A stretch of DNA of 14,762 nt, taken from the UHGV virus genome UHGV-0206032. One strand, given 5' to 3'. This stretch comes from a virus. Below the pieces are notes generated by a model. The model worked only from the letters and a program-made list of their open reading frames with translations. It was not told where the DNA came from and searched no databases. The translations under genes and the position numbers were made by a program. Within the stretch, counting starts at the first letter, position 1. Every line of letters starts with the position of its first letter. Positions 1-14,760 of this stretch are shown here, piece after piece.

Positions 1-1263
1 ATGGCGGTCTCACACGGCTCCTTGCCATTCAAAGAACAGATCGACTATTTCCGTGGCAAGGTCGACCTACCGACTCGCGCATGGACTGACGCTTACGCTG
101 CTGAACACGACTATGCCTTTGTCGTGGCGGGTGCTGCGAAGCGGGATCTGCTGACCGACCTGCGGGGTGCCGTAGAGAAGTCCATCGCCAGCGGCACCAC
201 CCTGGAGCAGTTCCGCAAAGACTTTGACCAGGTCGTCGGTAAACACGGCTGGCAGTACCAGGGCGAGCGCGGTTGGCGCACCAATGTCATCTGGGAGACC
301 AACCTGCGCCAGTCGTACAACGCGGGCCGCGAAGCCCAAATGGCTGACCCGGAGTTGCGCAAACGCCGTCCCTATGCGGTCTATCGTCATGGCGACAGCG
401 CGCACCCACGGCCAATGCACTTGTCCTGGAACGGCATCACGCTGCCGCTCGATGACCCCTGGTGGGCAACTCATACCCCGCAAAACGGCTGGGGCTGTAA
501 GTGCAAAAAATTCATGCTCTCGGCCAGGGACGTTGAACGCCAAGGGCTGACGATTGGTCCGGCACCGGCCACTGAATGGGAAGATCGGGTCATTGGCCAG
601 AACAGTCCTGACGGACCACGCACAGTGCGAGTGCCCAAGGGCATTGATCCAGGCTTTGAATATGCACCTGGTCAATCACGCCTGACGAACTCCGTGCCCC
701 AGCTGCGCACCCGCGACTTGATACCAGCACCATCAGCAGCTCCGGTACCGGCAATAGGTTTACCCAACCGTCAGCCCACCGGTCCTTTGCCGCAACCTCG
801 ACAAATCCCAGCAAAGCGCCTGCTCCCGGCCAAAGTGTCTGCCCCCCAGGCAGTGACTCAGTTCCTGGGCGAGTTCGGTGCCACGGATGCCACTCCGGCT
901 GTGTTCCGTGATGTGACCGGTGATGCCCTGGTCATCGGGCGGGCGATGTTCAGTGATGCCAAAACCGGCGCAATAGCATTGGCCCAACAAGTCAAGGCCC
1001 GCGAGTTACCGTTGTTGGCTGAAGCCATTAAGGCACCTGATGAGATCTGGGCGCGCTTGGAATGGCAGCCAGATCAAGGCAAAGCGGTGTTGCGCCGTCG
1101 TTACCTGGCGCACGTCCAGGTCAAAGGGAGGGCTGATCCAGCTGTTGCTGTATTCGACCAGGGCGCAGATGGCTGGACCGGCGTTACAGGGTTTGTAGAT
1201 GACAGCGAGCAGTACCTTGAGGCATTGCGCCTGGGTGTCCTGCTTTACCGGCGTACCGAATAG
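1..1263 (+). CDS. Phage head morphogenesis protein, MuF (Mu gp30) family, with Pro-rich linker and C-terminal domain
   Basis: 420-aa ORF starting at window position 1. N-terminal ~230 aa resemble the MuF/SPP1 gp7 head morphogenesis domain as I recall it (DYAFVVAGA...DLLTDLR, NVIWETNLRQSYNAGR, PYAVYRHGDSAHPRPMHLSWNG, NGWGCKCK). RBS GGGAG for the next gene overlaps its stop. True start could lie upstream of the window. Confidence 0.8.
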   Translation: MAVSHGSLPFKEQIDYFRGKVDLPTRAWTDAYAAEHDYAFVVAGAAKRDLLTDLRGAVEKSIASGTTLEQFRKDFDQVVGKHGWQYQGERGWRTNVIWETNLRQSYNAGREAQMADPELRKRRPYAVYRHGDSAHPRPMHLSWNGITLPLDDPWWATHTPQNGWGCKCKKFMLSARDVERQGLTIGPAPATEWEDRVIGQNSPDGPRTVRVPKGIDPGFEYAPGQSRLTNSVPQLRTRDLIPAPSAAPVPAIGLPNRQPTGPLPQPRQIPAKRLLPAKVSAPQAVTQFLGEFGATDATPAVFRDVTGDALVIGRAMFSDAKTGAIALAQQVKARELPLLAEAIKAPDEIWARLEWQPDQGKAVLRRRYLAHVQVKGRADPAVAVFDQGADGWTGVTGFVDDSEQYLEALRLGVLLYRRTE

Positions 1264-1272
1264 GGAGCAGAC

Positions 1273-1836
1273 ATGGCTGGTTCAATGCTTGAGGTATCCC
1301 TCGATACAAGCCCAGTAGGCAAGGCTCTGGACGATCTGGTCGAGCGACTAGGCGACCTGACAACGCCGCTCAATGACATCGCCGAATACCTGCACCAATC
1401 GACTGATGACCGCTTTCGTCAGCAGGTAGCCCCGGATGGTTCGCCCTGGGCGCCACTTGCGCCCTCAACTTTGGCACGTAAGAAGGGAGGCCGCATCCTC
1501 CGCGCCAAGGGCACGCTTCAGGACACACTGCGTCACAACGTCAGCAACAATGAGCTGTCTTTCGGTACTGACCGACCATACGGTGCCATTCACCAGCTCG
1601 GTGGTAAGGTCCAGCATGCGGCCAGGTCACAGCAGGTCTACTTCCGTCAGGGTAAAGATGGATCGGTGGGCAACCGCTTTGTGAAGAAGAGCAAGTCCAA
1701 CTTTGCGCAGTGGGTCACCCGTGGTGCGCATGACTCCGAGATCAAGGCAAGACCCTACCTGGGCCTATCATCAGACGACGATATCGAGATACTGGCGATC
1801 ATCCAGGACTACCTTATGGCGCCAATAACAGAGTAA
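1273..1836 (+). CDS. Phage virion morphogenesis protein (Mu G / gp31-like)
   Basis: 187-aa ORF immediately after the MuF gene, with RBS GGGAGCAG 6 nt upstream of ATG. Size and position match Mu G; sequence resembles the virion morphogenesis family from memory. Confidence 0.7.
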   Translation: MAGSMLEVSLDTSPVGKALDDLVERLGDLTTPLNDIAEYLHQSTDDRFRQQVAPDGSPWAPLAPSTLARKKGGRILRAKGTLQDTLRHNVSNNELSFGTDRPYGAIHQLGGKVQHAARSQQVYFRQGKDGSVGNRFVKKSKSNFAQWVTRGAHDSEIKARPYLGLSSDDDIEILAIIQDYLMAPITE

Positions 1837-2087
1837 CGATGCAGAATCACGCAGGCGCTCTGATAGCGGCTTACGGGTACATCCGTCACCTGTGGATTGG
1901 TTAAACAGCGTTAGACCTGCGTTAGATTCAGTTGTAGCGGTATTGATAACGTCTTCGCGAGATATCGTGCGGCCATTCTCTACATATAAAATGAATTCAC
2001 CGCGCACTCATTCTCGTCCTTCCCCAGGCAAAAACCTTGCGCGGTCCTGAAATTACTTTCATTTAAGTACCCGCCGACACTGGCGGC
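1837..2087 (+). promoter_or_regulatory. Intergenic region, candidate internal late promoter/operator (analogous in position to Mu P_I)
   Basis: Only sizeable non-coding gap in the window (251 bp) and AT-richer than its flanks. Contains direct repeat GCGTTAGA x2 (1908-1915, 1919-1926), inverted repeat ACCGCGCA / TGCGCGGT (1999-2006 / 2038-2045) and a GC hairpin CCGCC-N6-GGCGG (2071-2086) abutting the ATG of the next gene. In Mu a C-dependent late promoter sits upstream of gene I. Confidence 0.3.
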
Positions 2088-3062
2088 ATGAAAACTCAAC
2101 TCGCCGCTAACTCAGAAATTTACAGCTCCGTCGAGCTTTCCGATGGGAAGGCCCCCGACTGGGTTGAACTTATCCCCGCAGGTCCGACCGTCACCGGTCG
2201 TGATGGCCGTGCCTGGCTGTTCGATGACATGGCCACCGAACTGGTGCAGTCCAATTTCATCAGTCGAGCAATCGATCTGGTCATTGACCGGGAGCACGCC
2301 ACACAGCTCCGTGCATCCGTTGGCCAGGAAGCCCCAGCCGGTGCCTGGGTCAAACAATTCGAAATCCGCGATGGCGCTCTGTGGGGTCGCGTTGAATGGA
2401 CGCCTCGCGGTGCTGCTCAGGTCGAGGCCAAAGAGTATCGCTACCTATCCCCAGTGTTCGACTACGACCTCGACAACAAACGCATCGTGCGCATGGTCAG
2501 CGCGGCGCTGACCAATATCCCCAACCTCATCATGACCGCCCTCAACCAAGAAGCCCCGGAGAACACACCAGTGAAACTTTCAGCTGCGTTTTTGGCACTG
2601 CTCGGCCTGCCCGACACCGCCACTGAAGAACAGGCCATGTCGGCCGCAAGCCAACTCAAAACTACCGCCCAGGCCGCCAACACCGAACAGCCAAACTTGG
2701 CGCAGTTCGTCCCGCGTGCGGACTACGACGCCCTGGTCGGCCGTGCCACCAACGCCGAACAGGCGCTGGCCAGCCAGAAGAAGGCCGAGCACGACAAGGA
2801 AGTCGATGCAGTCATCATCTCGGCTACTAAGGCCGGAAAGATCACCCCATCCACCGTCGAGTACCACCGCGCCATGTGCCATGACGAAGCGGGCCTGGCG
2901 CGTTTCAAAGATTTTGTGACAGCGGCCCCTGTCGTGGCTGCGGCATCGGAACTGGGCAACAGGAACCCCGCGAATACCGGCACGGCTCTCAACGCCGAGG
3001 AACAAAAGGTCGCATCGTTGCTGGGTATGAGCGAAGCGGAATTCATCAAGGGCAAGGCGTAA
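2088..3062 (+). CDS. Prohead protease / scaffold protein (Mu I / gp32-like)
   Basis: 324-aa ORF. N-terminal half resembles Mu I-type protease (GKAPDWVELIPAGP...GRDGRAWLFDD); C-terminal half is Ala/Gln/Glu-rich and scaffold-like. Lies directly upstream of the major capsid gene, as in Mu. Confidence 0.8.
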   Translation: MKTQLAANSEIYSSVELSDGKAPDWVELIPAGPTVTGRDGRAWLFDDMATELVQSNFISRAIDLVIDREHATQLRASVGQEAPAGAWVKQFEIRDGALWGRVEWTPRGAAQVEAKEYRYLSPVFDYDLDNKRIVRMVSAALTNIPNLIMTALNQEAPENTPVKLSAAFLALLGLPDTATEEQAMSAASQLKTTAQAANTEQPNLAQFVPRADYDALVGRATNAEQALASQKKAEHDKEVDAVIISATKAGKITPSTVEYHRAMCHDEAGLARFKDFVTAAPVVAAASELGNRNPANTGTALNAEEQKVASLLGMSEAEFIKGKA

Positions 3063-3090
3063 CTCCCCCTCTATATAAAGGAAGAGATTC

Positions 3091-3984
3091 ATGATCATTA
3101 ACGCCAGTGTCTTGAACGCGCTGTTTGTTGCGTACAAGGCCGAGTTCCAAAACGCGCAGGCCGCGACACCGACCGACTGGAAGCGTATCGCCACGCCGGT
3201 CCCGTCCTCATCGGCCAGCAATACCTATGGCTGGCTGGGTCAGTTCCCGATGTTCCGTGAGTGGATCGGCGACCGTGTTCTCAAAAACATGGCAGCGCAT
3301 GGCTACTCCATCACCAACAAGAAGTTTGAGTCCTCGGTGGGTGTCCCACGTGATGCCATCGAAGACGACGAGATCGGCGTTTATAAGCCGCTGTTTGCCG
3401 AAATGGGGCGTGCTTCCAGTGCGCACCCGGACGAGCTGGTATTCGCGCTGCTCAAAGCGGGCTTGACCACCACCTGTTACGACGGCCAGTACTTCTTCGA
3501 TACTGATCATCCGGTCTACCCGTCGACCGATGCGTCTGGCACGGCGGTTTCCGTCAGCAACTATCAAGACGGTACAGGCCCGGCCTGGTATCTGCTCGAT
3601 GTCAGCCGCGCCCTGAAACCCATCATCTTTCAGAACCGTCGCAACTACGATCTGAAAGCGATGACCGCAATGGACGACGAAAGCGTATTCATGCGCGACG
3701 AATACCGCTATGGCGTGGATGCCCGGGTGAACGTCGGCTTCGGCTTCTGGCAGTTCGCTTACTGCTCAAAAGCCCCACTGACCGCCGAGAATTACGGCCT
3801 GGCTCGCGCAGCCATGAAGAACTTCCAGGCCGATGGCGGTCGCCCTTTGGGCATCAACCCCGGCCTCCTGGTTGTTCCATCCCAACTGGAAGGCGCTGCT
3901 CGCAAGATCCTGGTCAAGGATGCGGACAACGGCAACGAATGGGCAGGCACCGCCGAAGTACTTGCACCGGCCTGGCTGGGCTAA
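3091..3984 (+). CDS. Major capsid (head) protein, Mu T / gp34-like
   Basis: 297-aa ORF with strong RBS AGGAAGAG upstream. Size and position after the protease/scaffold gene match Mu T; sequence is consistent with the Mu-like major head subunit family from memory. Confidence 0.8.
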   Translation: MIINASVLNALFVAYKAEFQNAQAATPTDWKRIATPVPSSSASNTYGWLGQFPMFREWIGDRVLKNMAAHGYSITNKKFESSVGVPRDAIEDDEIGVYKPLFAEMGRASSAHPDELVFALLKAGLTTTCYDGQYFFDTDHPVYPSTDASGTAVSVSNYQDGTGPAWYLLDVSRALKPIIFQNRRNYDLKAMTAMDDESVFMRDEYRYGVDARVNVGFGFWQFAYCSKAPLTAENYGLARAAMKNFQADGGRPLGINPGLLVVPSQLEGAARKILVKDADNGNEWAGTAEVLAPAWLG

Positions 3985-3993
3985 GGGGGCGTC

Positions 3994-4548
3994 ATGACCA
4001 TTGTGATCACCTCGAAACATGACGGTTTTCGCCGCTGTGGCATCGCCCACTCCAGCGCGGCCGCGCGTTACCCGGATGACTTCTTTTCGGAAGCGCAGTT
4101 GCGGGCTCTGTCAAAAGAGCCTCAGTTGATCCTCGCTTATGAGGAGGATGAATTCGACCAGGTACAGGACCGCCGCGATGAAAACCTCCAGGAAGTCGAT
4201 GTATCGAAAGCGGCCGGCACCTCTGAAAGTACCTTGCAGGGCTTGGGTCAGACAGACCCTGCGGCAGTGGGTGACGCTGGGCTTAACCTCCAGCACGGAG
4301 CCAGCCATGGGCTTGATTTGCCGCAGGTAGGTGGTGTTGTTTCGGCAGATGAGGTCAAGCCTGAGCCAGACCTTGAGGCACTTTGGATCGCCGCGCTCCT
4401 GGAAGACGAACAACGGGAAGCGGCCAAACTGAACGCAGAGACCGAAACGCTTTGGGATGAAGCGATTGCGGAGGATGTACTGCGGGAGGTGGCCAAAGAA
4501 AAGGCGGCAAAGGCACCAGCAAAGCCTAAAAAGGCAGCGGGTAAATGA
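3994..4548 (+). CDS. Mu gp35 / FluMu-like small head-associated protein with acidic middle and Lys/Ala-rich tail
   Basis: 184-aa ORF with RBS AAGGGGG. N-terminal MTIVITSKHDGFRRCGIAH motif resembles the FluMu/Mu gp35 N-terminal domain; middle is strongly acidic; C-terminus is KEKAAKAPAKPKKAAGK. Stop overlaps the next start (ATGA). Confidence 0.5.
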   Translation: MTIVITSKHDGFRRCGIAHSSAAARYPDDFFSEAQLRALSKEPQLILAYEEDEFDQVQDRRDENLQEVDVSKAAGTSESTLQGLGQTDPAAVGDAGLNLQHGASHGLDLPQVGGVVSADEVKPEPDLEALWIAALLEDEQREAAKLNAETETLWDEAIAEDVLREVAKEKAAKAPAKPKKAAGK

Positions 4549-7843: not shown

Positions 7844-10261
7844 ATGTCCGATCTGCGCGTCGCGCTTCGTTTCCAGGCCCATGCGGGTAACAGTCGGCGC
7901 GAGATCGAGCAGATCAACCGTGACCTGCGCAAGGCTGGCAAGGAGGGCGCCAAGGCTCTGGCCGATGAAAGCTGGAAAGCGTCTTCTGCCATCACCAAGG
8001 TCGGCCAGGTCGGGGCCAACAGCTATAAAGTGATCCGTGCAGCAATGCGCGAAACCGCTACGGCTGGTTCCGGCACGCGCATCGAGGTCAGCAAGACAAC
8101 TGCTGAACTCAAGGATATGGCCAATGCAGCTCGCAAGGCTGCACGAGATGCGAAAACTGAGTTGCAGAACACCGACCGGCAAGGCGTGCAGCCCTTGCGC
8201 CAGAGCGTTGATAAGACAGAGGCATCCTTCCGGCGCATGGCACAGAACAGCGGTCGCAGCCTGCGAACTTTGAAAACCATCGCTATGGGTGTGCGTCAGG
8301 AGTTTGATCGCATCAAGGGGCTGGGCGGGAGCATGCAAGGGAAACTGGCTGGGTTAGGTGTGGGAGTCGGTGTTGTGTCGGGCGTGACATCAAGTGCAAA
8401 GCTGGACCGCCAGCTTATACGTACTCAACAAACTGCGGGCATGTCAGTTGAACAGCGTGAAGAATGGCGTGGTGAACAGTGGCGCTTAGCAAAAACCTAC
8501 GGCATTGAACGTGAGCAAGTTCAAACAGGGTTCGATACCTTGATCGCAAGTGGTATGTCCTACGATAAAGCGAAAGCAAGTTCCGGAGCTATCGCTCAAG
8601 CAACAGCAGTTACGGGGGCTGACTCCGGGATTCTGGCTAAAGCGCTTATAACTGGTGCGAGCGCTTTTGATATTGACCTCTCTAAGCCCAACGCTGCTGT
8701 AGACATCTTGCAAAAAATGATCGTTGCTGGCCGTCTGGGTAACGCTGAACTTGAGAATCTATCAAGCATTTTCCCTAAAGTGGGGCAGGACGCCAAGTCG
8801 GCGGGCATGTCCATGGCTCAGTCTCTTTCGTTTGTTGAAACGTTATCTCTTATTGAACTTGAACCTGATCGTCTAGGAACTCTGGCGCAATCGACTTTGC
8901 GTGCATTCAACAATGGTAATTACCGCAAGAGCGTTACGAAAAATACAGGCGTCGATTTTTTCAACAAGGATAAGTCTGTAAGGAATACTCAGGATGTATT
9001 TCTTGACCTACAGCACAAATACAAATCACTTAAGAATGACAAAGATCGCGCTCGATTCATGGATGTGGTGTTTGGAAAGATGGACCAGGACACGCAAAAG
9101 GGAGTTAAGGCGTTCTTGACTGGTGATCGACTGGAGAACTTTGCTAAAAGTACCGGGGACATTAATAACGCCAAAGGCGTTATTGAAAAGGATCTGGCCG
9201 ATAACATGAGCAGTTCGACTGCTGTCGGTTCTCGAATGAAGGCCAGCCTTGGCGAAGCCATCGACCGTATGGCGAAGCCATTGAACAAAGGCTTTGCAGA
9301 CCTCGGCAGTTACCTGCTCGATGATCTGAATTTGTCAGGCGAGCAAATGCTGGTCGGTGGTGCCGCACTGGGAGTCGGTGGCTACTACGCCGGACGCGGT
9401 GCCAAAGCAGGCGCAGGCGCTTTGCTCAACAAGTTTATGGGTGGACCGGAGACCTTGAAAAACATCGCCGTGGGCAAGGTGTTGGAAGAAGCCACGGGCG
9501 TTACATCTGTTTTCGTCACCAACTGGCCTGCTGGTGCGCCCCTCGGTATTGGCAGCGGTCCCGACCTGCCCAATGGTCCCAGTTCCGGTAAAGGCAACGG
9601 GAAGCCAGGTGGTTTTATCACCCCGTGGCTAGCACCCTTGGCTTTAGCTGCGACGGCCACGCAGATCGGCGGGGCAAGTGCGACGGCTACAGACGAAGGT
9701 CGCCTCGATGCTGCCCAGCGCAGCAAGCTGCTTAACGATGATCAGCGAACGTACCAGGCGTCCTTCTACCGCAACCGCATGGCCCTGGCCGACAGGAATC
9801 CCAGCCAGTCATCTGATTGGCTGTCCTCAGAGGCCCAACGCCTGGCGCACCATGAAACCGGCCTGACAGCTGCGGGCCTGCCCATCGATGGCGCAAACAC
9901 CTGGGCCCAAGGCATCGCCGGTCGTGCCCTGGCTGCGGGTGCCAACACCTTCACAGCACAACAACGCCTGCGGGACATGATGGCGCAATCCGGTACCAGC
10001 CAGCCTTCGACCTGGTTAGCCGACCAGGCGCAACGCCTGGCTAACCCGTTGTCGGGCGGCAGCATGGCTGGCTTTCCTGGAATTGCCGGCAACGGCTCCG
10101 CACCAGGTGCAATCGGTGCCAATCCTGCCGCACAAGCCGCCGAGGAACGCCTCCGCTCCTTGCTCACCCAGCCGCTGATCATTGAAGTGCGTACTGACTC
10201 ACGGATGATCCAGGCCGAGGTTGAGCGTCGAACTGATATTCAGATGAGGCGCGGCGGATGA
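7844..10261 (+). CDS. Tail tape measure protein
   Basis: 805-aa ORF with RBS GGGAG, downstream of the chaperone. Has Gly-rich/hydrophobic stretches, a conserved-looking central core and C-terminal repeats. Stop overlaps the next start (ATGA). Confidence 0.85.
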   Translation: MSDLRVALRFQAHAGNSRREIEQINRDLRKAGKEGAKALADESWKASSAITKVGQVGANSYKVIRAAMRETATAGSGTRIEVSKTTAELKDMANAARKAARDAKTELQNTDRQGVQPLRQSVDKTEASFRRMAQNSGRSLRTLKTIAMGVRQEFDRIKGLGGSMQGKLAGLGVGVGVVSGVTSSAKLDRQLIRTQQTAGMSVEQREEWRGEQWRLAKTYGIEREQVQTGFDTLIASGMSYDKAKASSGAIAQATAVTGADSGILAKALITGASAFDIDLSKPNAAVDILQKMIVAGRLGNAELENLSSIFPKVGQDAKSAGMSMAQSLSFVETLSLIELEPDRLGTLAQSTLRAFNNGNYRKSVTKNTGVDFFNKDKSVRNTQDVFLDLQHKYKSLKNDKDRARFMDVVFGKMDQDTQKGVKAFLTGDRLENFAKSTGDINNAKGVIEKDLADNMSSSTAVGSRMKASLGEAIDRMAKPLNKGFADLGSYLLDDLNLSGEQMLVGGAALGVGGYYAGRGAKAGAGALLNKFMGGPETLKNIAVGKVLEEATGVTSVFVTNWPAGAPLGIGSGPDLPNGPSSGKGNGKPGGFITPWLAPLALAATATQIGGASATATDEGRLDAAQRSKLLNDDQRTYQASFYRNRMALADRNPSQSSDWLSSEAQRLAHHETGLTAAGLPIDGANTWAQGIAGRALAAGANTFTAQQRLRDMMAQSGTSQPSTWLADQAQRLANPLSGGSMAGFPGIAGNGSAPGAIGANPAAQAAEERLRSLLTQPLIIEVRTDSRMIQAEVERRTDIQMRRGG

Positions 10262-11601
10262 GCTGGGCAGAGAACCTGCTGGACGCTTCCTTCCGTGGCG
10301 TCCCGCTCCAAGTAGAAGGCGAAAGCCTACAATGGCAACGCGCCCTGTCTGAGCATGGGACGCCGTTCAAGGATGGCGACCGGGTCAAAGACCTGGGCCG
10401 TGGTGCGCGCCGTATCCCCATGCAAGTAGTGGTGTTCGGCGTCAATTACGAGATCGAACTCCAGAACATCCTCCGTACCTTGAATACACCAGGTACGGGC
10501 GAACTGATCCACCCGATCTACGGCAGCATGAATGTCGTCAGCAGCACCGGCGAGGTAAAGCACAGCGCCGAGCGGCCAGACTATGCCGAGATCAGCATAG
10601 TGTTTGTTGAGGACACGCCCGACGCTCCATTCTTCGACCGGCAGTTTGAATTTGTCGATGTCGGCGTATTGGGGTTGGAGGATGAATACACCTGGCAGGA
10701 TGGCATCTTCGATCTGTTCGGCCGTATTGATTCCCTGGTCGGCGAGATTCAATCGTGGATCGGCGGGGGCTGGGTAGGACTGATCGAAAAGGCCCTGGGC
10801 TTGCCTGGCATTGGCCTGCGCTTGCAACAGCTGCGCTCGCAGATCATGGGTGTGGTGTCCGGCGTCGGGTCGATGGCCAAGCGGCCATCAGGGGCGTTTG
10901 ATCCCCTGGTCGACCTGATGCGCACACCCTCGGAGATCCGAGGCGCCATCCAGGGCAGCACGCCCAGTTCGTCAACGACGCTACTAGCTCGCACTGGCGT
11001 ACCCGTTAGCTTGCCTGGTAATGCCAGCCTGGTGGCGGATGCTGCGCGTGCGGGTACTGGCTTTCTGATAGGTGCCCGACAAGGTGTGGCACCCACCGTC
11101 GGCCTGCTGATCGACGGCGTACCGACCAATGCGGGCAGCGCCCTGGTGCTGCTGCCCGACGGAATGCCGGATGATCCGGTTACCGCTAACGGTTTCGCCC
11201 TGGTCGTCCTGGTCATCACTGAACTGGCACTGGCTCACGCCCAGGCGGTAGCCACCGTCATCGAGGACGAAGCCGATACGCCGACGTTGAGTCCATTAGA
11301 GCTGGAAGGCCTGGTTAATTTGGTGCGCTCGCTGGTGCAGTCGTCCATCCTTCTACAACGTCACCTTTTCGACGTAGAGACCGCACTGCCGATCATTGAT
11401 GCATTGCGCAACGTCGCCGCGTTGATCCAGGCCCGCGCCCGTCAAGTCATTTTGCAAAGTCCTCCGATGCTTGAGCGGGTGGTTGAGACGCCTGCAAGCC
11501 TACATTTGCTGGCTCACCGCTGGTATGGCGGGCCGAGTGGAAGGAAAAGGTCGAAGCGGCCGCTGCTCGCGTCGACAAGATCGCCAAAAAAGGCGGCATG
11601 A
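10258..11601 (+). CDS. DNA circulation protein (Mu N / gp43-like)
   Basis: 447-aa ORF. N-terminus (ASFRGVPLQVEG, LGRGARRIP, GTGELIHPIYGS) matches the DNA circulation protein N-terminal domain as recalled for Mu N. The 3' end is uncertain: its last ~40 codons overlap other frames (see findings). Confidence 0.75.
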   Translation: MSWAENLLDASFRGVPLQVEGESLQWQRALSEHGTPFKDGDRVKDLGRGARRIPMQVVVFGVNYEIELQNILRTLNTPGTGELIHPIYGSMNVVSSTGEVKHSAERPDYAEISIVFVEDTPDAPFFDRQFEFVDVGVLGLEDEYTWQDGIFDLFGRIDSLVGEIQSWIGGGWVGLIEKALGLPGIGLRLQQLRSQIMGVVSGVGSMAKRPSGAFDPLVDLMRTPSEIRGAIQGSTPSSSTTLLARTGVPVSLPGNASLVADAARAGTGFLIGARQGVAPTVGLLIDGVPTNAGSALVLLPDGMPDDPVTANGFALVVLVITELALAHAQAVATVIEDEADTPTLSPLELEGLVNLVRSLVQSSILLQRHLFDVETALPIIDALRNVAALIQARARQVILQSPPMLERVVETPASLHLLAHRWYGGPSGRKRSKRPLLASTRSPKKAA

Positions 11602-11650
11602 GTCAGACAACAGCGGACGAAATCCGGCGCGAGATCCTGGGGATGGCATC

Positions 11651-13204
11651 GTGAGTCTGCCCCTCGTCCTAGACAGCACCGCCACTTTGCTTGCCCCAGC
11701 GGTCTTACTCGACTATCAGAAAGAGTGGATCGGTATACGCGCCCCACTCAAGGTTGGCGAGAAATCCCGGCGTATCGGTCTCACATGGGCTGAGGCGGCA
11801 GACAACGTCCTGGTAGCCGCGTCCGAAAAATCGGCGGGCGGTCAAACTGTCTATTACCTCGGCTACAACCAAGACATGACCGTGGAGTACATCCAGGCAT
11901 GCGCCATGTGGGCGCGGGCCTATAACTACGCGGCCGAGCAAATAGAAGAAGGCATCTGGCCCGACAGCGACCCCGACAAACACATCAAGACCTACACCAT
12001 CGCGTTTCCCAGCGGCCACCGCATCGTCGCGCTGACCAGTCGCCCGTCCAACCTGCGTGGGCGTCAGGGCGTTGTCGTGATCGACGAAGCCGCGTTCCAT
12101 GCGGACTTGGCCGAGCTGCTCAAAGCTGCAATGGCTCTGTTGATCTGGGGCGGTGAAGTCCATGTGATCAGCACCCACGACGGTACGGAGAACCCCTTCA
12201 ACGACCTGGTCAACGAAATCCGGTCAGGCAAGCGCAATGGTGAAGTGTTCCGCTGCACGTTCGGTGAAGCCGTTGCCGATGGTCTGTACAAGCGTGTCTG
12301 CCTGCGTAAAGGCATTGGGTACAGGCTTGAGGATCAAATCGCCTGGGTGAATGACGTATACGACTTCTACGGCGATGCAGCCGACGAAGAATTAGACTGC
12401 GTGCCATCCCAGGGTGGCGGTGCCTTCCTCAGCATGGCCCTGGTTGAGCAGCGCAGTAACCGTGACGTGCCGGTACTGCGCCTGGCATACCCGCAGGGTT
12501 ACGAAACCATCGCCGAACACTTGCGCCTGGCCGAGTCCCTGGAGTGGTGCGAAGAGCATTTGCTCCCGCTGCTTTCGGCCATTCCCCTGGACGTTCAGAG
12601 CTTCTATGGCATGGACTTCGGGCGCTCCGGAGACCTCTCGGTCTTCTGGCCATTGCTCAAAGAGCAGAATCTGCGCAAACGCACGCCCTTTGTGGTCGAG
12701 CTGCGTAACGTCCCGTTCAAGCAACAACTCCAGATTAAGTTTTACATCATTCGTCGCTTACCCAACTTCCTCAAAGGCGCCGACGACGCCAGGGGCAACG
12801 GCTCGCAACTGTCGGAAGACACTGCCGTCGAGTTCGGCTTCAACCGCATCGAGCGTGTGATGCTCACCGAGGGCTGGTATCGCGACAACATGCCGCCGTT
12901 CAAGGCCGCCCTGGAAGATGACACCTTCTACGACATCCCGGCCGACAAGGATGTGGTTAGCGACGTGCGTGCCTTTCGGATGGTCAAGGGCGTGGCTCGC
13001 ATCCCCGAAAAGCGCACCAACGAAAAGGGCGAAAAGTCCGGACCGAAGCGCCATGGCGACGCCGGTATCGCGGCCGTACTGGCCGACTACGCCTCTCGTC
13101 AAGATGTCGAAATCTTCGAATATCACCGCGTCCAGCCAGCCGTCCAGCATGATCGCGAGATCAAGCACGGGGCTGGGTGGCGCTCTCAGAAAGGCATTTG
13201 GTAA
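11651..13204 (+). CDS. Terminase large subunit (Mu gp28-like)
   Basis: Frame of track ORF 11471..13204, but start proposed at GTG 11651 (RBS GGGGA 7 nt upstream); the upstream in-frame part is Arg-rich junk overlapping gene N. Motifs: LLDYQKEW near N-terminus, Walker-B-like VVVIDEAAF, ISTHDG, nuclease-domain-like GMDFGRSGDLSV, C-terminal RHGDAGIAAVLA. Confidence 0.75.
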   Translation: MSLPLVLDSTATLLAPAVLLDYQKEWIGIRAPLKVGEKSRRIGLTWAEAADNVLVAASEKSAGGQTVYYLGYNQDMTVEYIQACAMWARAYNYAAEQIEEGIWPDSDPDKHIKTYTIAFPSGHRIVALTSRPSNLRGRQGVVVIDEAAFHADLAELLKAAMALLIWGGEVHVISTHDGTENPFNDLVNEIRSGKRNGEVFRCTFGEAVADGLYKRVCLRKGIGYRLEDQIAWVNDVYDFYGDAADEELDCVPSQGGGAFLSMALVEQRSNRDVPVLRLAYPQGYETIAEHLRLAESLEWCEEHLLPLLSAIPLDVQSFYGMDFGRSGDLSVFWPLLKEQNLRKRTPFVVELRNVPFKQQLQIKFYIIRRLPNFLKGADDARGNGSQLSEDTAVEFGFNRIERVMLTEGWYRDNMPPFKAALEDDTFYDIPADKDVVSDVRAFRMVKGVARIPEKRTNEKGEKSGPKRHGDAGIAAVLADYASRQDVEIFEYHRVQPAVQHDREIKHGAGWRSQKGIW

Positions 13205-14760
13205 TGGCTGACTCCAAAATCGTCGACCAGTACGGTCGCCCGATCCAGTACGACAAACTCACGGAAGAGCTGGCAGTTGCCCGCACCACCGGCATTCGCC
13301 AGATTTGGCACCAGTCGGTGGCCAACGGCCTGACACCTCAGCGTCTGGCGAGTATTTTGCGGGCCGCTGCCGAGGGATCAGCTAATGACTACCTGACCCT
13401 TGCTGAGGAAATGGAAGAACGGGATCTGCATTATGCCTCGGTGTTAGGCACACGTAAGCTGGCAGTGGCCGGGTTGTCGGTTCGGATCGAGGCAGCCAGC
13501 GACGATCCCGAGGACGTACGCCGGGCCGATCAGCTCAAGGAGCTAGTTGACTCTCCCGAGTTTGGCGAGCTTCAGGCGGACCTGACTGACGCCATGGGCA
13601 AAGGCTATGCCGTCTCCGAAATCATGTGGGACCGTAGTGGTAAGACCTGGAATCCTGAGCGTTTTGAACCCCGCGATCAGCGATTCTTCCAATTTGACCG
13701 TGAAACCGGCCGGGAGCTGCGCCTGCTCGATGAGGCTGATCCGATCAATGGTGTTGCCCTGGCTCCGTACAAATTCATTGTTCATCTGCCGCGTATCCGC
13801 TCTGGTCTTCCGATCCGGGGCGGCCTGGCGCGCCTCGCGGCTGTTGGCTACATGTGCAAGGCCTGGACTTGGAAGGACTGGATGGGCTTTGCTGACATCT
13901 TCGGCATGCCGATGCGCGTCGGCCGGTACGGCGCAGGTGCGAGCAAGGAAGACATCAGCACTCTGATGTCTGCGGTGGCCAACCTGGGCAGCGATGCAGC
14001 AGCGGTGATCCCGGACAGCATGCGCATTGAGTTTACCCAGGCCGCCAATGTGGGCGGTGCCGGGGACTTCTTCAAAGGGCTGGCCGAATGGTGGGATAAA
14101 CAAGTCAGTAAGGCCGTAGTCGGTCAGACCATGTCCACCGACGACGGCTCCAGCCAAGCCCAGGCAACGATTCATAACGAAGTTCGTATAGACCTACTGC
14201 AAGCCGATGCCAAGGCCGAATCCAACACCTTGAACCGCTACTTTGTGCGGCCCTGGTGCGATCTGAACTTTGCACCTGGTCGTCCGTATCCGCGGCTGAT
14301 CATTGATGTGCCAAAGCCAGAAAACACCAAGATCCTGATCGAGGCACTCAAGACACTCGTTCCGTTAGGGTTGAAGGTCGAGCAGTCCGTAATCCGCGAC
14401 AAGCTCAATATCCCGGCTCCGGCCGAGGGTGCCGAACTGCTGGGCATCCCGCCACCCGTTGCCACTCCTGCGCTGGCCCAGGCTACCAACAGCGAGCAAA
14501 AGCCAGCCAAGCCGGTGGTAATGCCGGACATCGTGGATAACCAGGTGCGGACGCTTGAGCGGACTGTGGGGGTCTATATGGATGACATGGTCGAGCAGAT
14601 CAAGGAACTACTCGACACCGTCAGCAGCCTGGAAGAGTTCCGGGATCGGCTGATCGAAGCCTATCCAGCGATGACCACCAGCCAATTGGCCGATGCGATT
14701 GCTGATGGCCTGACGGCCGCCAGCATGGCTGGCCGCGATGACATTCTGAGAGGCCTGTAA
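13204..14760 (+). CDS. Portal protein (Mu gp29-like, DUF935-type)
   Basis: Start proposed at ATG 13204, which overlaps the TerL stop (TAATG), rather than the track's 13177. 518 aa, directly downstream of TerL. N-terminal region (IWHQSVANGLTPQRLASILRAAAEG...LAEEMEERDLHY) resembles the Mu gp29 portal family from memory. Confidence 0.75.
   Translation: MADSKIVDQYGRPIQYDKLTEELAVARTTGIRQIWHQSVANGLTPQRLASILRAAAEGSANDYLTLAEEMEERDLHYASVLGTRKLAVAGLSVRIEAASDDPEDVRRADQLKELVDSPEFGELQADLTDAMGKGYAVSEIMWDRSGKTWNPERFEPRDQRFFQFDRETGRELRLLDEADPINGVALAPYKFIVHLPRIRSGLPIRGGLARLAAVGYMCKAWTWKDWMGFADIFGMPMRVGRYGAGASKEDISTLMSAVANLGSDAAAVIPDSMRIEFTQAANVGGAGDFFKGLAEWWDKQVSKAVVGQTMSTDDGSSQAQATIHNEVRIDLLQADAKAESNTLNRYFVRPWCDLNFAPGRPYPRLIIDVPKPENTKILIEALKTLVPLGLKVEQSVIRDKLNIPAPAEGAELLGIPPPVATPALAQATNSEQKPAKPVVMPDIVDNQVRTLERTVGVYMDDMVEQIKELLDTVSSLEEFRDRLIEAYPAMTTSQLADAIADGLTAASMAGRDDILRGL

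What the first reader, a model, noticed from the sequence alone, without database searches (positions are those of the whole stretch)
2088..3062. Possible nested in-frame scaffold (Mu Z-like) within the protease gene
The C-terminal half of the I-like ORF is Ala/Glu/Gln-rich and scaffold-like, with an in-frame internal ATG (2636-2638, ...EEQAMSAASQ...). In Mu the scaffold Z is made from the same frame as protease I. The RBS before this ATG is weak, so this is speculative.
Basis: inference. Interest (0 to 1): 0.25.

Follow-up and report, generated by a model that had tools for sequence, protein, structure and literature searches.

The report
Nested scaffold gene in Mu-like protease

Summary
The ORF 2088-3062 (324 aa) is a clear Mu gene I homologue (Pfam Mu-like_Pro, E = 2.8e-64). 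It lies between G-like and T-like (major head) genes of a Pseudomonas Mu-like myovirus prophage.

The idea of a nested scaffold is supported, but the proposed start is not. It has no Shine-Dalgarno (SD) sequence (-1.0 kcal/mol), and relatives carry F, A, T, I, L or V(GTC) there.

The site homologous to the annotated Mu Z start (M179) is GTG 2571-2573 (V162), preceded by GGAG 2558-2561 with the same 9-nt spacer as in Mu.
- 98 of 99 distinct I-like ORFs (29-98% identity) have an ATG or GTG with an SD in this linker, against 11% of control windows.
- In 34 Pseudomonas relatives, only two of 90 invariant, codon-degenerate residues use a single codon: E158 (GAG) and V162 (GTG).
- The codon before E158 encodes five different amino acids but always ends in G.
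- AlphaFold puts V162 at the end of a disordered linker, between a beta-rich protease domain and an all-helical C-terminal part.

The predicted product is 163 aa, 17.1 kDa. Nested scaffolds are already annotated or proposed in Mu, BcepMu, KS10, B3 and PaMx73.

Side finding: the protease's own start lacks an SD and abuts a conserved, covarying hairpin.

The parts
2088..3062 (+). Full-length I-like prohead protease-scaffold ORF (324 aa, 34.9 kDa)
   Evidence: ORF. Pfam Mu-like_Pro E = 2.8e-64; PHROG 328 'head maturation protease' E = 2.3e-92. 30% identical to Mu gpI over its whole length. D67, H70 and S121 are invariant in a 14-sequence alignment.
2088..2519 (+). Protease domain (residues 1-144), beta-rich
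   Evidence: AlphaFold2 model: strands and helices through residue 142, with block pLDDT mostly 70-89. Best PDB fold match is T4 gp21 prohead protease 5jbl (E = 0.035, prob 0.85; weak). BFVD matches are prohead/capsid maturation proteases and scaffolds (44 hits at E <= 1e-3).
2520..2573 (+). Disordered inter-domain linker (residues 145-162) that carries the internal translation start signals
   Evidence: pLDDT < 50 for residues 145-162. Linker length and sequence vary among 99 homologues. 50-nt windows starting at 2505-2532 are the least structured mRNA in the ORF (MFE 0 to -3.1 kcal/mol against an ORF mean of -12.1).
2558..2561 (+). Shine-Dalgarno GGAG of the nested gene, 9 nt before the GTG
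   Evidence: Window cGGAGAAcacaccaGTG against Mu aGGAGAAcaaacccATG. Duplex energy -6.6 kcal/mol, within the range of the other gene starts in the window (-4.3 to -11.1). In 34 Pseudomonas-clade sequences Glu158 is always GAG. The preceding codon encodes P, Q, M, L or T but always ends in G.
2571..3062 (+). Nested in-frame Z-like scaffold gene, GTG start (163 aa, 17.1 kDa, pI 5.4, 21.5% Ala, all-helical)
   Evidence: Aligns with the annotated Mu Z start M179. 98 of 99 homologues have ATG/GTG plus an SD here. Val162 is always GTG. PHROG 15607 (167-position profile) matches residues 163-323 from profile position 2. Helices 166-171, 180-199, 210-248, 254-263, 267-279, 303-311 and 316-323. A free-standing homologue starts at the same position in L122. 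Size and composition.
2637..2639 (+).
   Evidence: SD duplex -1.0 kcal/mol. The aligned codon in relatives is TTC, GTC, GCT, ATC, ACT or CTG, and ACA in Mu.
2071..2086 (+). GC-rich hairpin ending 1 nt before the protease start codon ATG 2088, which has no SD
   Evidence: CCGCCG-acac-TGGCGG, -9.4 kcal/mol, z = -2.2. The I start has SD energy -1.5, and the median over 93 homologues is -1.5. In 79% of 77 distinct leaders positions -8 to -2 form a 3' stem arm, against 29% of controls. Compensatory changes occur in 4 of 6 pairs in a geometry-selected subset.
3091..3984 (+). T-like major head protein gene immediately downstream (context: the scaffold's client)
   Evidence: Pfam Mu-like_gpT E = 2.6e-126.

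Best explanation
The gene at 2088-3062 is the Mu gene I homologue of a Pseudomonas Mu-like myovirus prophage. It is read in one frame from two starts.

The first start is ATG 2088. It gives the 324-aa protein: an N-terminal prohead serine protease domain joined by a flexible linker to a helical scaffold domain.

The second start is GTG 2571 (codon 162), at the end of the linker. Ribosomes are recruited there by GGAG 2558-2561 and make a 163-aa, 17-kDa helical protein identical to the C-terminal half. This is the Mu Z / lambda Nu3 equivalent, the bulk scaffold for assembly of the T-like major head protein.

Because the protease carries the same C-terminal module, it would co-assemble into the procapsid in small numbers. 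It would later digest the scaffold.

Shown here: homology, synteny, position of the start, nucleotide-level conservation of the SD and start codon, and domain architecture. Inferred: that initiation really occurs at 2571, that the product acts as scaffold, and the stoichiometry. The SD-less, hairpin-occluded protease start against the SD-bearing internal start in unstructured RNA suggests little protease and much scaffold.
For: 1. Homology and synteny. Pfam Mu-like_Pro 2.8e-64. The neighbours are F-, G- and T-like genes, gp36- and gp37-like genes and a tail sheath.
2. The annotated Mu start. NC_000929 annotates Z at 18590-19141, which is I residues 179-361 ('start site internal to gene I'), with AGGAGAAcaaacccATG. 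BLASTP aligns Mu P-M179-N with window P-V162-K. The window has cGGAGAAcacaccaGTG.
3. SD strength. Of the 16 in-frame start codons in the ORF, only 2571 has an SD (-6.6 kcal/mol). The other gene starts in the window range from -4.3 to -11.1.
4. Breadth of conservation. 98 of 99 distinct I-like ORFs (29-98% identity) have ATG (46) or GTG (53) with SD <= -5 kcal/mol in this linker. Equal-width windows elsewhere in the same ORFs reach that in 11.1% of cases.
5. Nucleotide-level selection. In 34 Pseudomonas-clade ORFs, only 2 of 90 invariant, codon-degenerate columns use a single codon, namely E158 = GAG and V162 = GTG. Residue 157 varies over five amino acids with an invariant third-base G. Background usage is GTG 32.5% of Val codons and GAG 53.5% of Glu codons.
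6. Structure. The AF2 model has a beta-rich domain at 1-144, a disordered stretch at 145-162 and an all-helical part at 166-324. BFVD matches are maturation proteases and scaffolds.
7. Autonomy of the module. PHROG 15607 (167 positions) aligns from its position 2 to residue 163. A free-standing 163-aa homologue in L122 starts at the equivalent position, after an unrelated upstream ORF, a hairpin and AAAGGAG.
8. Precedent. Nested scaffolds are annotated in BcepMu gp33, KS10 gp29 and B3 ORF36Z (PMC2628397). A Val177 start with an SD is proposed for PaMx73 (PMC4378225).
Against: - There is no protein-level or ribosome-profiling evidence for this prophage or its close relatives. Everything rests on sequence.
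- GTG is a weaker initiator than ATG.
- The 9-nt GGAG-to-start spacer is at the long end of the usual range, although it is identical in Mu.
- The sequences compared are phylogenetically related, so the counts are not independent trials.
- I could not read the primary Mu papers. 'Annotated Mu Z start' therefore rests on the GenBank note, not on data I inspected.
- Most short stand-alone 'Z-like' database proteins proved to be contig-end truncations, not separate genes.
Confidence: 0.85

Rival explanations
1. The scaffold starts at the reader's ATG 2637 (M184), giving a 141-aa, 14.8-kDa product.
For: An in-frame ATG exists there. It is kept in the closest relatives (>= 87% identity) and in two distant ones, L006 and L025. 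ATG is a stronger initiator than GTG.
Against: There is no SD (-1.0 kcal/mol). The aligned codon cannot initiate in most relatives (TTC, GTC, GCT, ATC, ACT, CTG, and ACA in Mu). The site lies inside a predicted helix (180-199), not at a domain boundary. A product from this ATG would lack the conserved LLxxLGL motif.
Confidence: 0.04
2. There is no internal initiation. Only the full-length protease-scaffold fusion is made, and it acts as both enzyme and scaffold, as in the fused prohead protease-scaffold proteins of T1-like phages or P2 gpO. Any free C-terminal fragment would come from autoproteolysis in the linker.
For: Fused protease-scaffold proteins that work as single polypeptides are described for Drexlerviridae (bioRxiv 10.1101/2023.05.21.541620). 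P2 gpO is from my own knowledge. The linker is disordered and therefore accessible to a protease. Database annotations of the close homologues list only one product, 'phage protease'.
Against: It does not explain why GGAG and GTG are the only fully codon-invariant positions among 90 invariant residues. It does not explain why 98 of 99 homologues keep a start codon plus an SD in an otherwise hypervariable linker. It does not explain why the full-length start has no SD and sits against a hairpin, which would be odd for the sole source of a protein needed in hundreds of copies.
Confidence: 0.08
3. The conserved GGAG...GTG is kept for a reason other than initiation, for example an internal SD-like ribosome pause site that helps the protease domain fold before the scaffold domain emerges.
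For: The motif lies exactly at a domain boundary. The SD-like pausing idea comes from my own knowledge of the literature and is contested.
Against: Pausing needs no start codon. Yet the codon 9 nt downstream is always ATG or GTG, never another Val codon or another residue. A free-standing gene begins at this very position in L122. Mu's annotation places Z there.
Confidence: 0.03

Closest known systems
Phage Mu genes I (protease, gp32) and Z (scaffold, p20, gp33), NC_000929
   Same: Same Pfam family (Mu-like_Pro), 30% identity end to end, and the same flanking genes (G upstream, T downstream). The nested start is at the aligned linker position, with a GGAGAAC SD, an identical 9-nt spacer and the same reading frame.
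   Different: The start codon is GTG here and ATG in Mu. The product is shorter (163 against 183 aa). The host is Pseudomonas. I and T are separated by 28 nt here, whereas in Mu they overlap by 4 nt. The Mu Z start is taken from the GenBank annotation only.
Pseudomonas aeruginosa Mu-like siphophage PaMx73 / MP38 / D3112 group, 'protease (I) and scaffold (Z)' gene
   Same: PMC4378225 proposes an internal Val (GTG) start at codon 177, preceded by ACGAGGA, at the same relative position as in Mu. MP38 (L033) shows aagaggaaacctccGTG at the aligned site.
   Different: Only ~30% identity. Those phages are siphoviruses, while the window encodes a contractile tail sheath. That proposal too is computational only.
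BcepMu gp32/gp33, KS10 gp28/gp29, B3 ORF36/36Z nested protease-scaffold pairs
   Same: An in-frame scaffold nested at the 3' end of the protease gene is explicitly annotated in each (PMC2628397).
   Different: Their linker and C-terminal region are longer and align poorly with the window. The annotated internal starts are at residues 221, 253 and 270, not at the column homologous to Mu Z.
Lambda C / Nu3 (protease with in-frame nested scaffold)
   Same: Same logic: the scaffold is the C-terminal part of the protease reading frame and is made from an internal start (own knowledge; not tested here).
   Different: No detectable sequence relationship was sought or found here. Lambda C belongs to a different protease family.
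Fused prohead protease-scaffold proteins (T1-like Bas13; P2 gpO)
   Same: N-terminal protease plus C-terminal alpha-helical scaffold domain in one polypeptide.
   Different: In those systems the fusion itself is described as the scaffold. Here a separate internal start is conserved.

Membership tests
Mu-like prophage protein I (Pfam PF10123, prohead protease-scaffold) | Full-length match to the family profile above the curated threshold | tested here: met
   218.2 bits against a cut-off of 25.2, residues 26-321 on profile positions 1-330. PHROG 328 E = 2.3e-92.
Mu-like prophage protein I (Pfam PF10123, prohead protease-scaffold) | Position in the head module between the G-like morphogenesis gene and the T-like major head gene | tested here: met
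   Phage_tail_S (G) at 1273-1836 and Mu-like_gpT at 3091-3984. Same order as Mu.
Mu-like prophage protein I (Pfam PF10123, prohead protease-scaffold) | Conserved candidate catalytic His and Ser of a prohead serine protease | tested here: inconclusive
   D67, H70 and S121 are invariant in 14 sequences at 32-71% identity and in 40 close homologues. Their catalytic role was not tested. The fold match to T4 gp21 is weak (E = 0.035). BFVD protease and scaffold matches are significant.
Nested in-frame scaffold gene of Mu Z type | In-frame start codon at the position homologous to the Mu Z start | tested here: met
   Mu M179 aligns with window V162 = GTG 2571.
Nested in-frame scaffold gene of Mu Z type | Shine-Dalgarno sequence at working distance from that codon | tested here: met
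   GGAG at 2558-2561, 9-nt spacer, -6.6 kcal/mol. It is the only in-frame start in the ORF with an SD.
Nested in-frame scaffold gene of Mu Z type | Start signals conserved beyond what the overlapping protein sequence requires | tested here: met
   98 of 99 against 11% for control windows. E158 = GAG and V162 = GTG are the only single-codon columns among 90. The third base of codon 157 is an invariant G across five amino acids.
Nested in-frame scaffold gene of Mu Z type | Product is an alpha-helical protein able to act on its own | tested here: met
   The AF2 model is all-helical over 166-324. A free-standing homologous gene exists in L122. Scaffold activity itself was not tested.
Nested in-frame scaffold gene of Mu Z type | Short product actually synthesised and present in procapsids | not testable with these tools
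   Needs proteomics, N-terminal sequencing or initiation profiling.

The most novel reading that the evidence does not exclude
Across Mu-like phages the protease:scaffold ratio may be hard-wired in the mRNA of one gene. The full-length (protease) start has no Shine-Dalgarno sequence and is sequestered by a conserved, covarying hairpin that ends at, or includes, the ATG. The nested scaffold start has a canonical SD in the least structured stretch of the gene. The hairpin would then be a previously undescribed translational throttle (no Rfam family matches it). It might also respond to temperature, a helicase or a late factor.
Probability: 0.4. Interest if true: 0.4.

Novelty: new member of a known kind. 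Interest (0 to 1): 0.18.

Why it matters
For annotation, close homologues in the databases are labelled only 'phage protease' or 'Mu-like prophage I protein'. The scaffold gene of this large group of Pseudomonas Mu-like prophages is therefore unannotated. The rule found here (ATG or GTG plus GGAG/GAGGA in the linker just before the LLxxLGL motif) would let it be added systematically.

Biologically it adds nothing unexpected, because nested protease-scaffold genes are a textbook feature of Mu and lambda. The analysis does give a clean comparative demonstration that the internal start is under nucleotide-level selection over a wide range of Mu-like phages. It also points to a conserved hairpin at the protease start that may set the protease:scaffold ratio.

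Tried and rejected
- ATG 2637 as the start: rejected, because it has no SD and is not conserved.
- PDB sequence search with a 14-sequence profile: nothing meaningful (best E = 0.2).
- Foldseek against PDB: only a weak T4 gp21 match.
- Short (~163-177 aa) database proteins matching the Z part looked like independent evidence for separate genes. Four of the five contigs inspected carry the gene at a contig end with the I frame open upstream, so these are truncation artefacts. Only L122 is a true free-standing gene.
- RNAalifold on an ungapped alignment of 53 I-start leaders predicted no consensus structure, because the 5' arm position and loop length vary. I used per-sequence folding and a geometry-selected subset instead. 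That subset is biased towards the structure.
- Rfam: no family anywhere in the window.
- Sigma-70 promoter scan of 1700-3200: none. The terminator-like hits are not convincing.
- mRNA structure centred on 2571 is only modestly weak (26th percentile). The clearly unstructured stretch lies just upstream and includes the SD.
- Morgan et al. 2002 (Mu genome paper) is not held, so the experimental basis of the Mu Z start could not be checked.

Full report
**Context.** The window is the late (head and tail) region of a Mu-like myovirus.
- Residues 1-420 of the first ORF match Phage_Mu_F plus a PBECR2 domain.
- 1273-1836 is a G-like morphogenesis protein (Phage_tail_S).
- 2088-3062 matches Mu-like_Pro (E = 2.8e-64).
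- 3091-3984 is a Mu T-like major head protein (E = 2.6e-126).
- Then come FluMu_N, gp36-like and gp37-like genes and a tail sheath (PHROGs agree).
- The closest genomic relatives are prophages of fluorescens-group Pseudomonas. Pseudomonas sp. MF4836 has 94% protein identity, P. azerbaijanoccidentalis 87% and P. fluorescens 71%.
- Among deposited phages the best matches are unannotated 'Bacteriophage sp.' contigs from human faecal viromes, at 86% DNA identity over 70% of the window.

**Checking the observation.** The ORF and its translation are as described.
- The internal ATG in ...EEQAMSAAS... is at 2637-2639 (codon 184), one base to the right of the stated coordinates. Translating from 2636 is out of frame.
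- Its ribosome-binding site is indeed weak, with a best duplex with the 16S 3' end of -1.0 kcal/mol.
- The C-terminal part is Ala-rich: 21.5% against 12.4% in the N-terminal half and 11.8% in the other ORFs. It is not notably Glu- or Gln-rich.
- The ORF holds 16 in-frame ATG/GTG/TTG codons, so one more in-frame ATG carries no weight by itself.

**What is really there.** In the RefSeq record of Mu, I is 18056-19141 and Z is 18590-19141 ('start site internal to gene I; also called p20'), so Z is residues 179-361 of I.
- The Mu Z start reads AGGAGAAcaaacccATG.
- BLASTP of the window protein against Mu I (30% identity over the whole length) aligns Mu ...QQENKP-M179-NETLRKLLARLG with window ...APENTP-V162-KLSAAFLALLG.
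- Window V162 is GTG 2571-2573, and the upstream sequence is cGGAGAAcacaccaGTG. This is the same GGAGAAC and the same 9-nt spacer.
- Of all in-frame start codons in the ORF, this is the only one with an SD (-6.6 kcal/mol). The other gene starts in the window range from -4.3 to -11.1.
- PHROG 15607, a 167-position family of unknown function, aligns from its position 2 to residue 163 of the window protein. Separately called proteins in phage genomes therefore begin exactly here.

**Comparative test.** I collected I-like genes with their DNA from three sources:
- GTDB genomes;
- IMG/VR;
- annotated phages, including Mu, Alteromonadaceae B23, Vibrio martha, Shewanella MuM16-2, Ralstonia RS138, Faecalibacterium Mushu, Ochrobactrum POA1180, P. 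aeruginosa MP38, Klebsiella Kp4866-3, KS10, BcepMu and B3.

This gave 99 distinct ORFs at 29-98% identity to the window protein.
- The linker between the conserved ...TN.PN...ALN end of the protease domain and the LLxxLGL motif varies in length and sequence, but it always contains an M or V.
- At the DNA level, 98 of 99 have an ATG (46) or GTG (53) there with an SD duplex of -5 kcal/mol or better. The remaining one has -4.0.
- Equal-width windows elsewhere in the same ORFs meet this criterion in 11.1% of cases.

**Nucleotide-level selection.** The test was done in the 34 Pseudomonas-clade sequences (>= 62% identity).
- 90 alignment columns have an invariant amino acid with a degenerate codon.
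- Only two of these use a single codon in every sequence: E158 (always GAG) and V162 (always GTG).
- Other invariant Glu and Val columns mix synonymous codons freely.
- Residue 157 takes five different amino acids (P, Q, M, L, T), but its codon always ends in G, which completes the GGAG.
- Overall, GTG is 32.5% of Val codons and GAG 53.5% of Glu codons in these genes.
- This is the signature of selection on the RNA signal and not on the protein. The sequences are related, so the counts are not independent events, but the contrast with every other column of the same alignment is internal to the data.

M184 fails the same test. The aligned codon is ATG only in the closest relatives and in two distant ones. 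Elsewhere it is TTC, GTC, GCT, ATC, ATT, ACT, CTG or GTA, and ACA in Mu. The upstream GAAGAACAGGCC gives no SD pairing in the Pseudomonas clade.

**Structure.** An AlphaFold2 model was built from 40 homologues (mean pLDDT 70).
- It has a beta-rich N-terminal domain (residues 1-144), a segment with pLDDT < 50 at 145-162, and then helices only (166-324).
- V162 is therefore the last residue of the disordered linker.
- Foldseek against the PDB gives T4 gp21 prohead protease as the top match, but weakly (E = 0.035).
- Against predicted viral structures there are 44 matches at E <= 1e-3, named capsid maturation protease, prohead protease, scaffolding protein and Mu-like prophage I protein.
- D67, H70 and S121 are invariant across distant homologues, in keeping with a Ser/His prohead protease. 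The catalytic assignment is an inference.
- No homologue has a solved structure detectable by sequence.

**Autonomy of the C-terminal module.** A full HMMER scan with residues 162-324 found 781 representatives at E <= 0.001. Many are ~163-177 aa and begin M-x(2-6)-LLxxLGL.
- I inspected five contigs carrying four of these proteins. On four of them the gene sits at the contig end with the I frame open upstream, so these short proteins are truncation artefacts.
- On the fifth contig (L122, protein P0156) the gene is truly free-standing. The upstream frame ends in an unrelated small basic ORF, followed by a hairpin and AAAGGAG-N8-ATG, and the protein starts MKAVFTALGLPE.
- So the unit that begins at the window's V162 can exist as a gene of its own.

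**Mechanism proposed.** Two products come from one frame.
- The 35-kDa protease-scaffold is made from ATG 2088.
- The 17.1-kDa scaffold is made from GTG 2571.
- The shared C-terminal module would target a few protease molecules into the scaffold core of the procapsid built from the T-like protein. The protease would then remove the scaffold. These steps are inferred by analogy with Mu I/Z and lambda C/Nu3.

**The protease's own start.** A further observation bears on stoichiometry.
- ATG 2088 has no SD (-1.5 kcal/mol), and this is general: the median over 93 homologues is -1.5, and only 15% reach -5.
- Instead, a GC-rich hairpin ends just before, or includes, the ATG. In the window it is CCGCCG-acac-TGGCGG at 2071-2086 (-9.4 kcal/mol, z = -2.2).
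- In 79% of 77 distinct leaders, positions -8 to -2 form a 3' stem arm, against 29% of random in-ORF controls. The mean z-score against shuffles is -2.3.
- The arms covary: GCCGCC/GGCGGC, GGGGCG/CGCCCC, CCTCC/GGAGG, GCGCC/GGCGC, CCGCT/AGCGG.
- In an 18-sequence subset of uniform geometry, 4 of 6 pairs show compensatory changes and 97% of cells pair. None of 500 shuffles reaches this on 4 of the 5 measures, and 5 of 500 do on the fifth. The slid registers pair at 24-60%. This subset was chosen because it fits the structure, so these numbers are biased upward.
- By contrast, the SD of the nested start lies in the least structured part of the gene (z = +1.8).
- A throttled protease start and an open scaffold start would give little protease and much scaffold. 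This is an inference, and the element matches no Rfam family.

**Comparison with what is known.** Nested, in-frame scaffold genes inside the protease gene are annotated for Mu, BcepMu ('nested conserved protein... Mu Z equivalent'), KS10 (PMC2628397) and B3.
- For the P. aeruginosa Mu-like phage PaMx73, an internal Val177 start preceded by ACGAGGA, at the same relative position as in Mu, has been proposed in print (PMC4378225).
- The window is therefore a new member of a known kind.
- The BcepMu, KS10 and B3 subgroup has a different, longer linker, and their annotated starts do not align with the Mu-type site.

**Verdict.** The feature is real, conserved and ordinary for this phage family.

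Noticed in passing
window 2068-2090 (hairpin 2071-2086, ATG 2088): The protease start codon has no Shine-Dalgarno sequence and is abutted by a GC-rich hairpin. The hairpin is conserved, with compensatory arm changes, in most I-like genes from 29 to 98% identity. In many relatives the ATG itself is paired (CATGCCGCC...GGCGGCATG). It may be a translational throttle, and no Rfam family matches it.
   Followed up: partly
window 1837-2087 (G-I intergenic gap): This 251-nt non-coding gap is at the place where Mu has its gyrase cut site (annotated at 17879-17880); the P_I late promoter is placed there only from my own knowledge. It holds a direct repeat GCGTTAGA x2 (1908-1915, 1919-1926; 11-nt spacing) that is conserved in several relatives. 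It also holds a palindrome, CCATTCTCTACGTATAGAATGG in relatives, which is imperfect in the window at about 1973-1995. A block CTTAAACCnnnCTGAAACTC lies ~60 nt before the ATG (the window has CTTGCGCGGTCCTGAAATTAC at about 2036-2056). No sigma-70 consensus promoter was found. These are probably activator-dependent late promoter or regulatory sites.
   Followed up: partly
window 3994-4548: This 184-aa ORF has an N-terminal FluMu_N domain (E = 3.9e-10). It also has an acidic middle and a Lys/Ala/Pro-rich, histone-H1-like C-terminal tail (...AKEKAAKAPAKPKKAAGK). Function unknown; it sits right after the major head gene.
   Followed up: no
window 1-1263: The Mu F-like minor head protein carries a C-terminal PBECR2 domain (phage Barnase-EndoU-ColicinE5/D-RelE-like nuclease; E = 7.9e-26) in addition to Phage_Mu_F.
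   Followed up: no
L122:1-640 (ENA ERZ27313253 k141_494510): This is a Mu-like head module in which the Z-like scaffold is a free-standing gene with no protease domain directly upstream. It is preceded by the end of a small basic ORF (MARHTKKESKRSKHR*), a hairpin and AAAGGAG. Where, or whether, this phage encodes its protease was not examined.
   Followed up: partly
whole window against MT835710.1 and related records: The nearest deposited 'phage' sequences (83-93% DNA identity) are unannotated contigs from Mexican human faecal viromes, although the prophage family is otherwise found in fluorescens-group Pseudomonas. This probably reflects dietary, environmental or reagent Pseudomonas in those samples.
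   Followed up: no
window 10258-11601, 11471-13204 and 13177-14760: Large + strand ORFs in the tail/baseplate region overlap by 131 and 28 nt as listed from the first possible start (TTG 11471, GTG 13177). The true starts are probably further downstream. Not examined.
   Followed up: no
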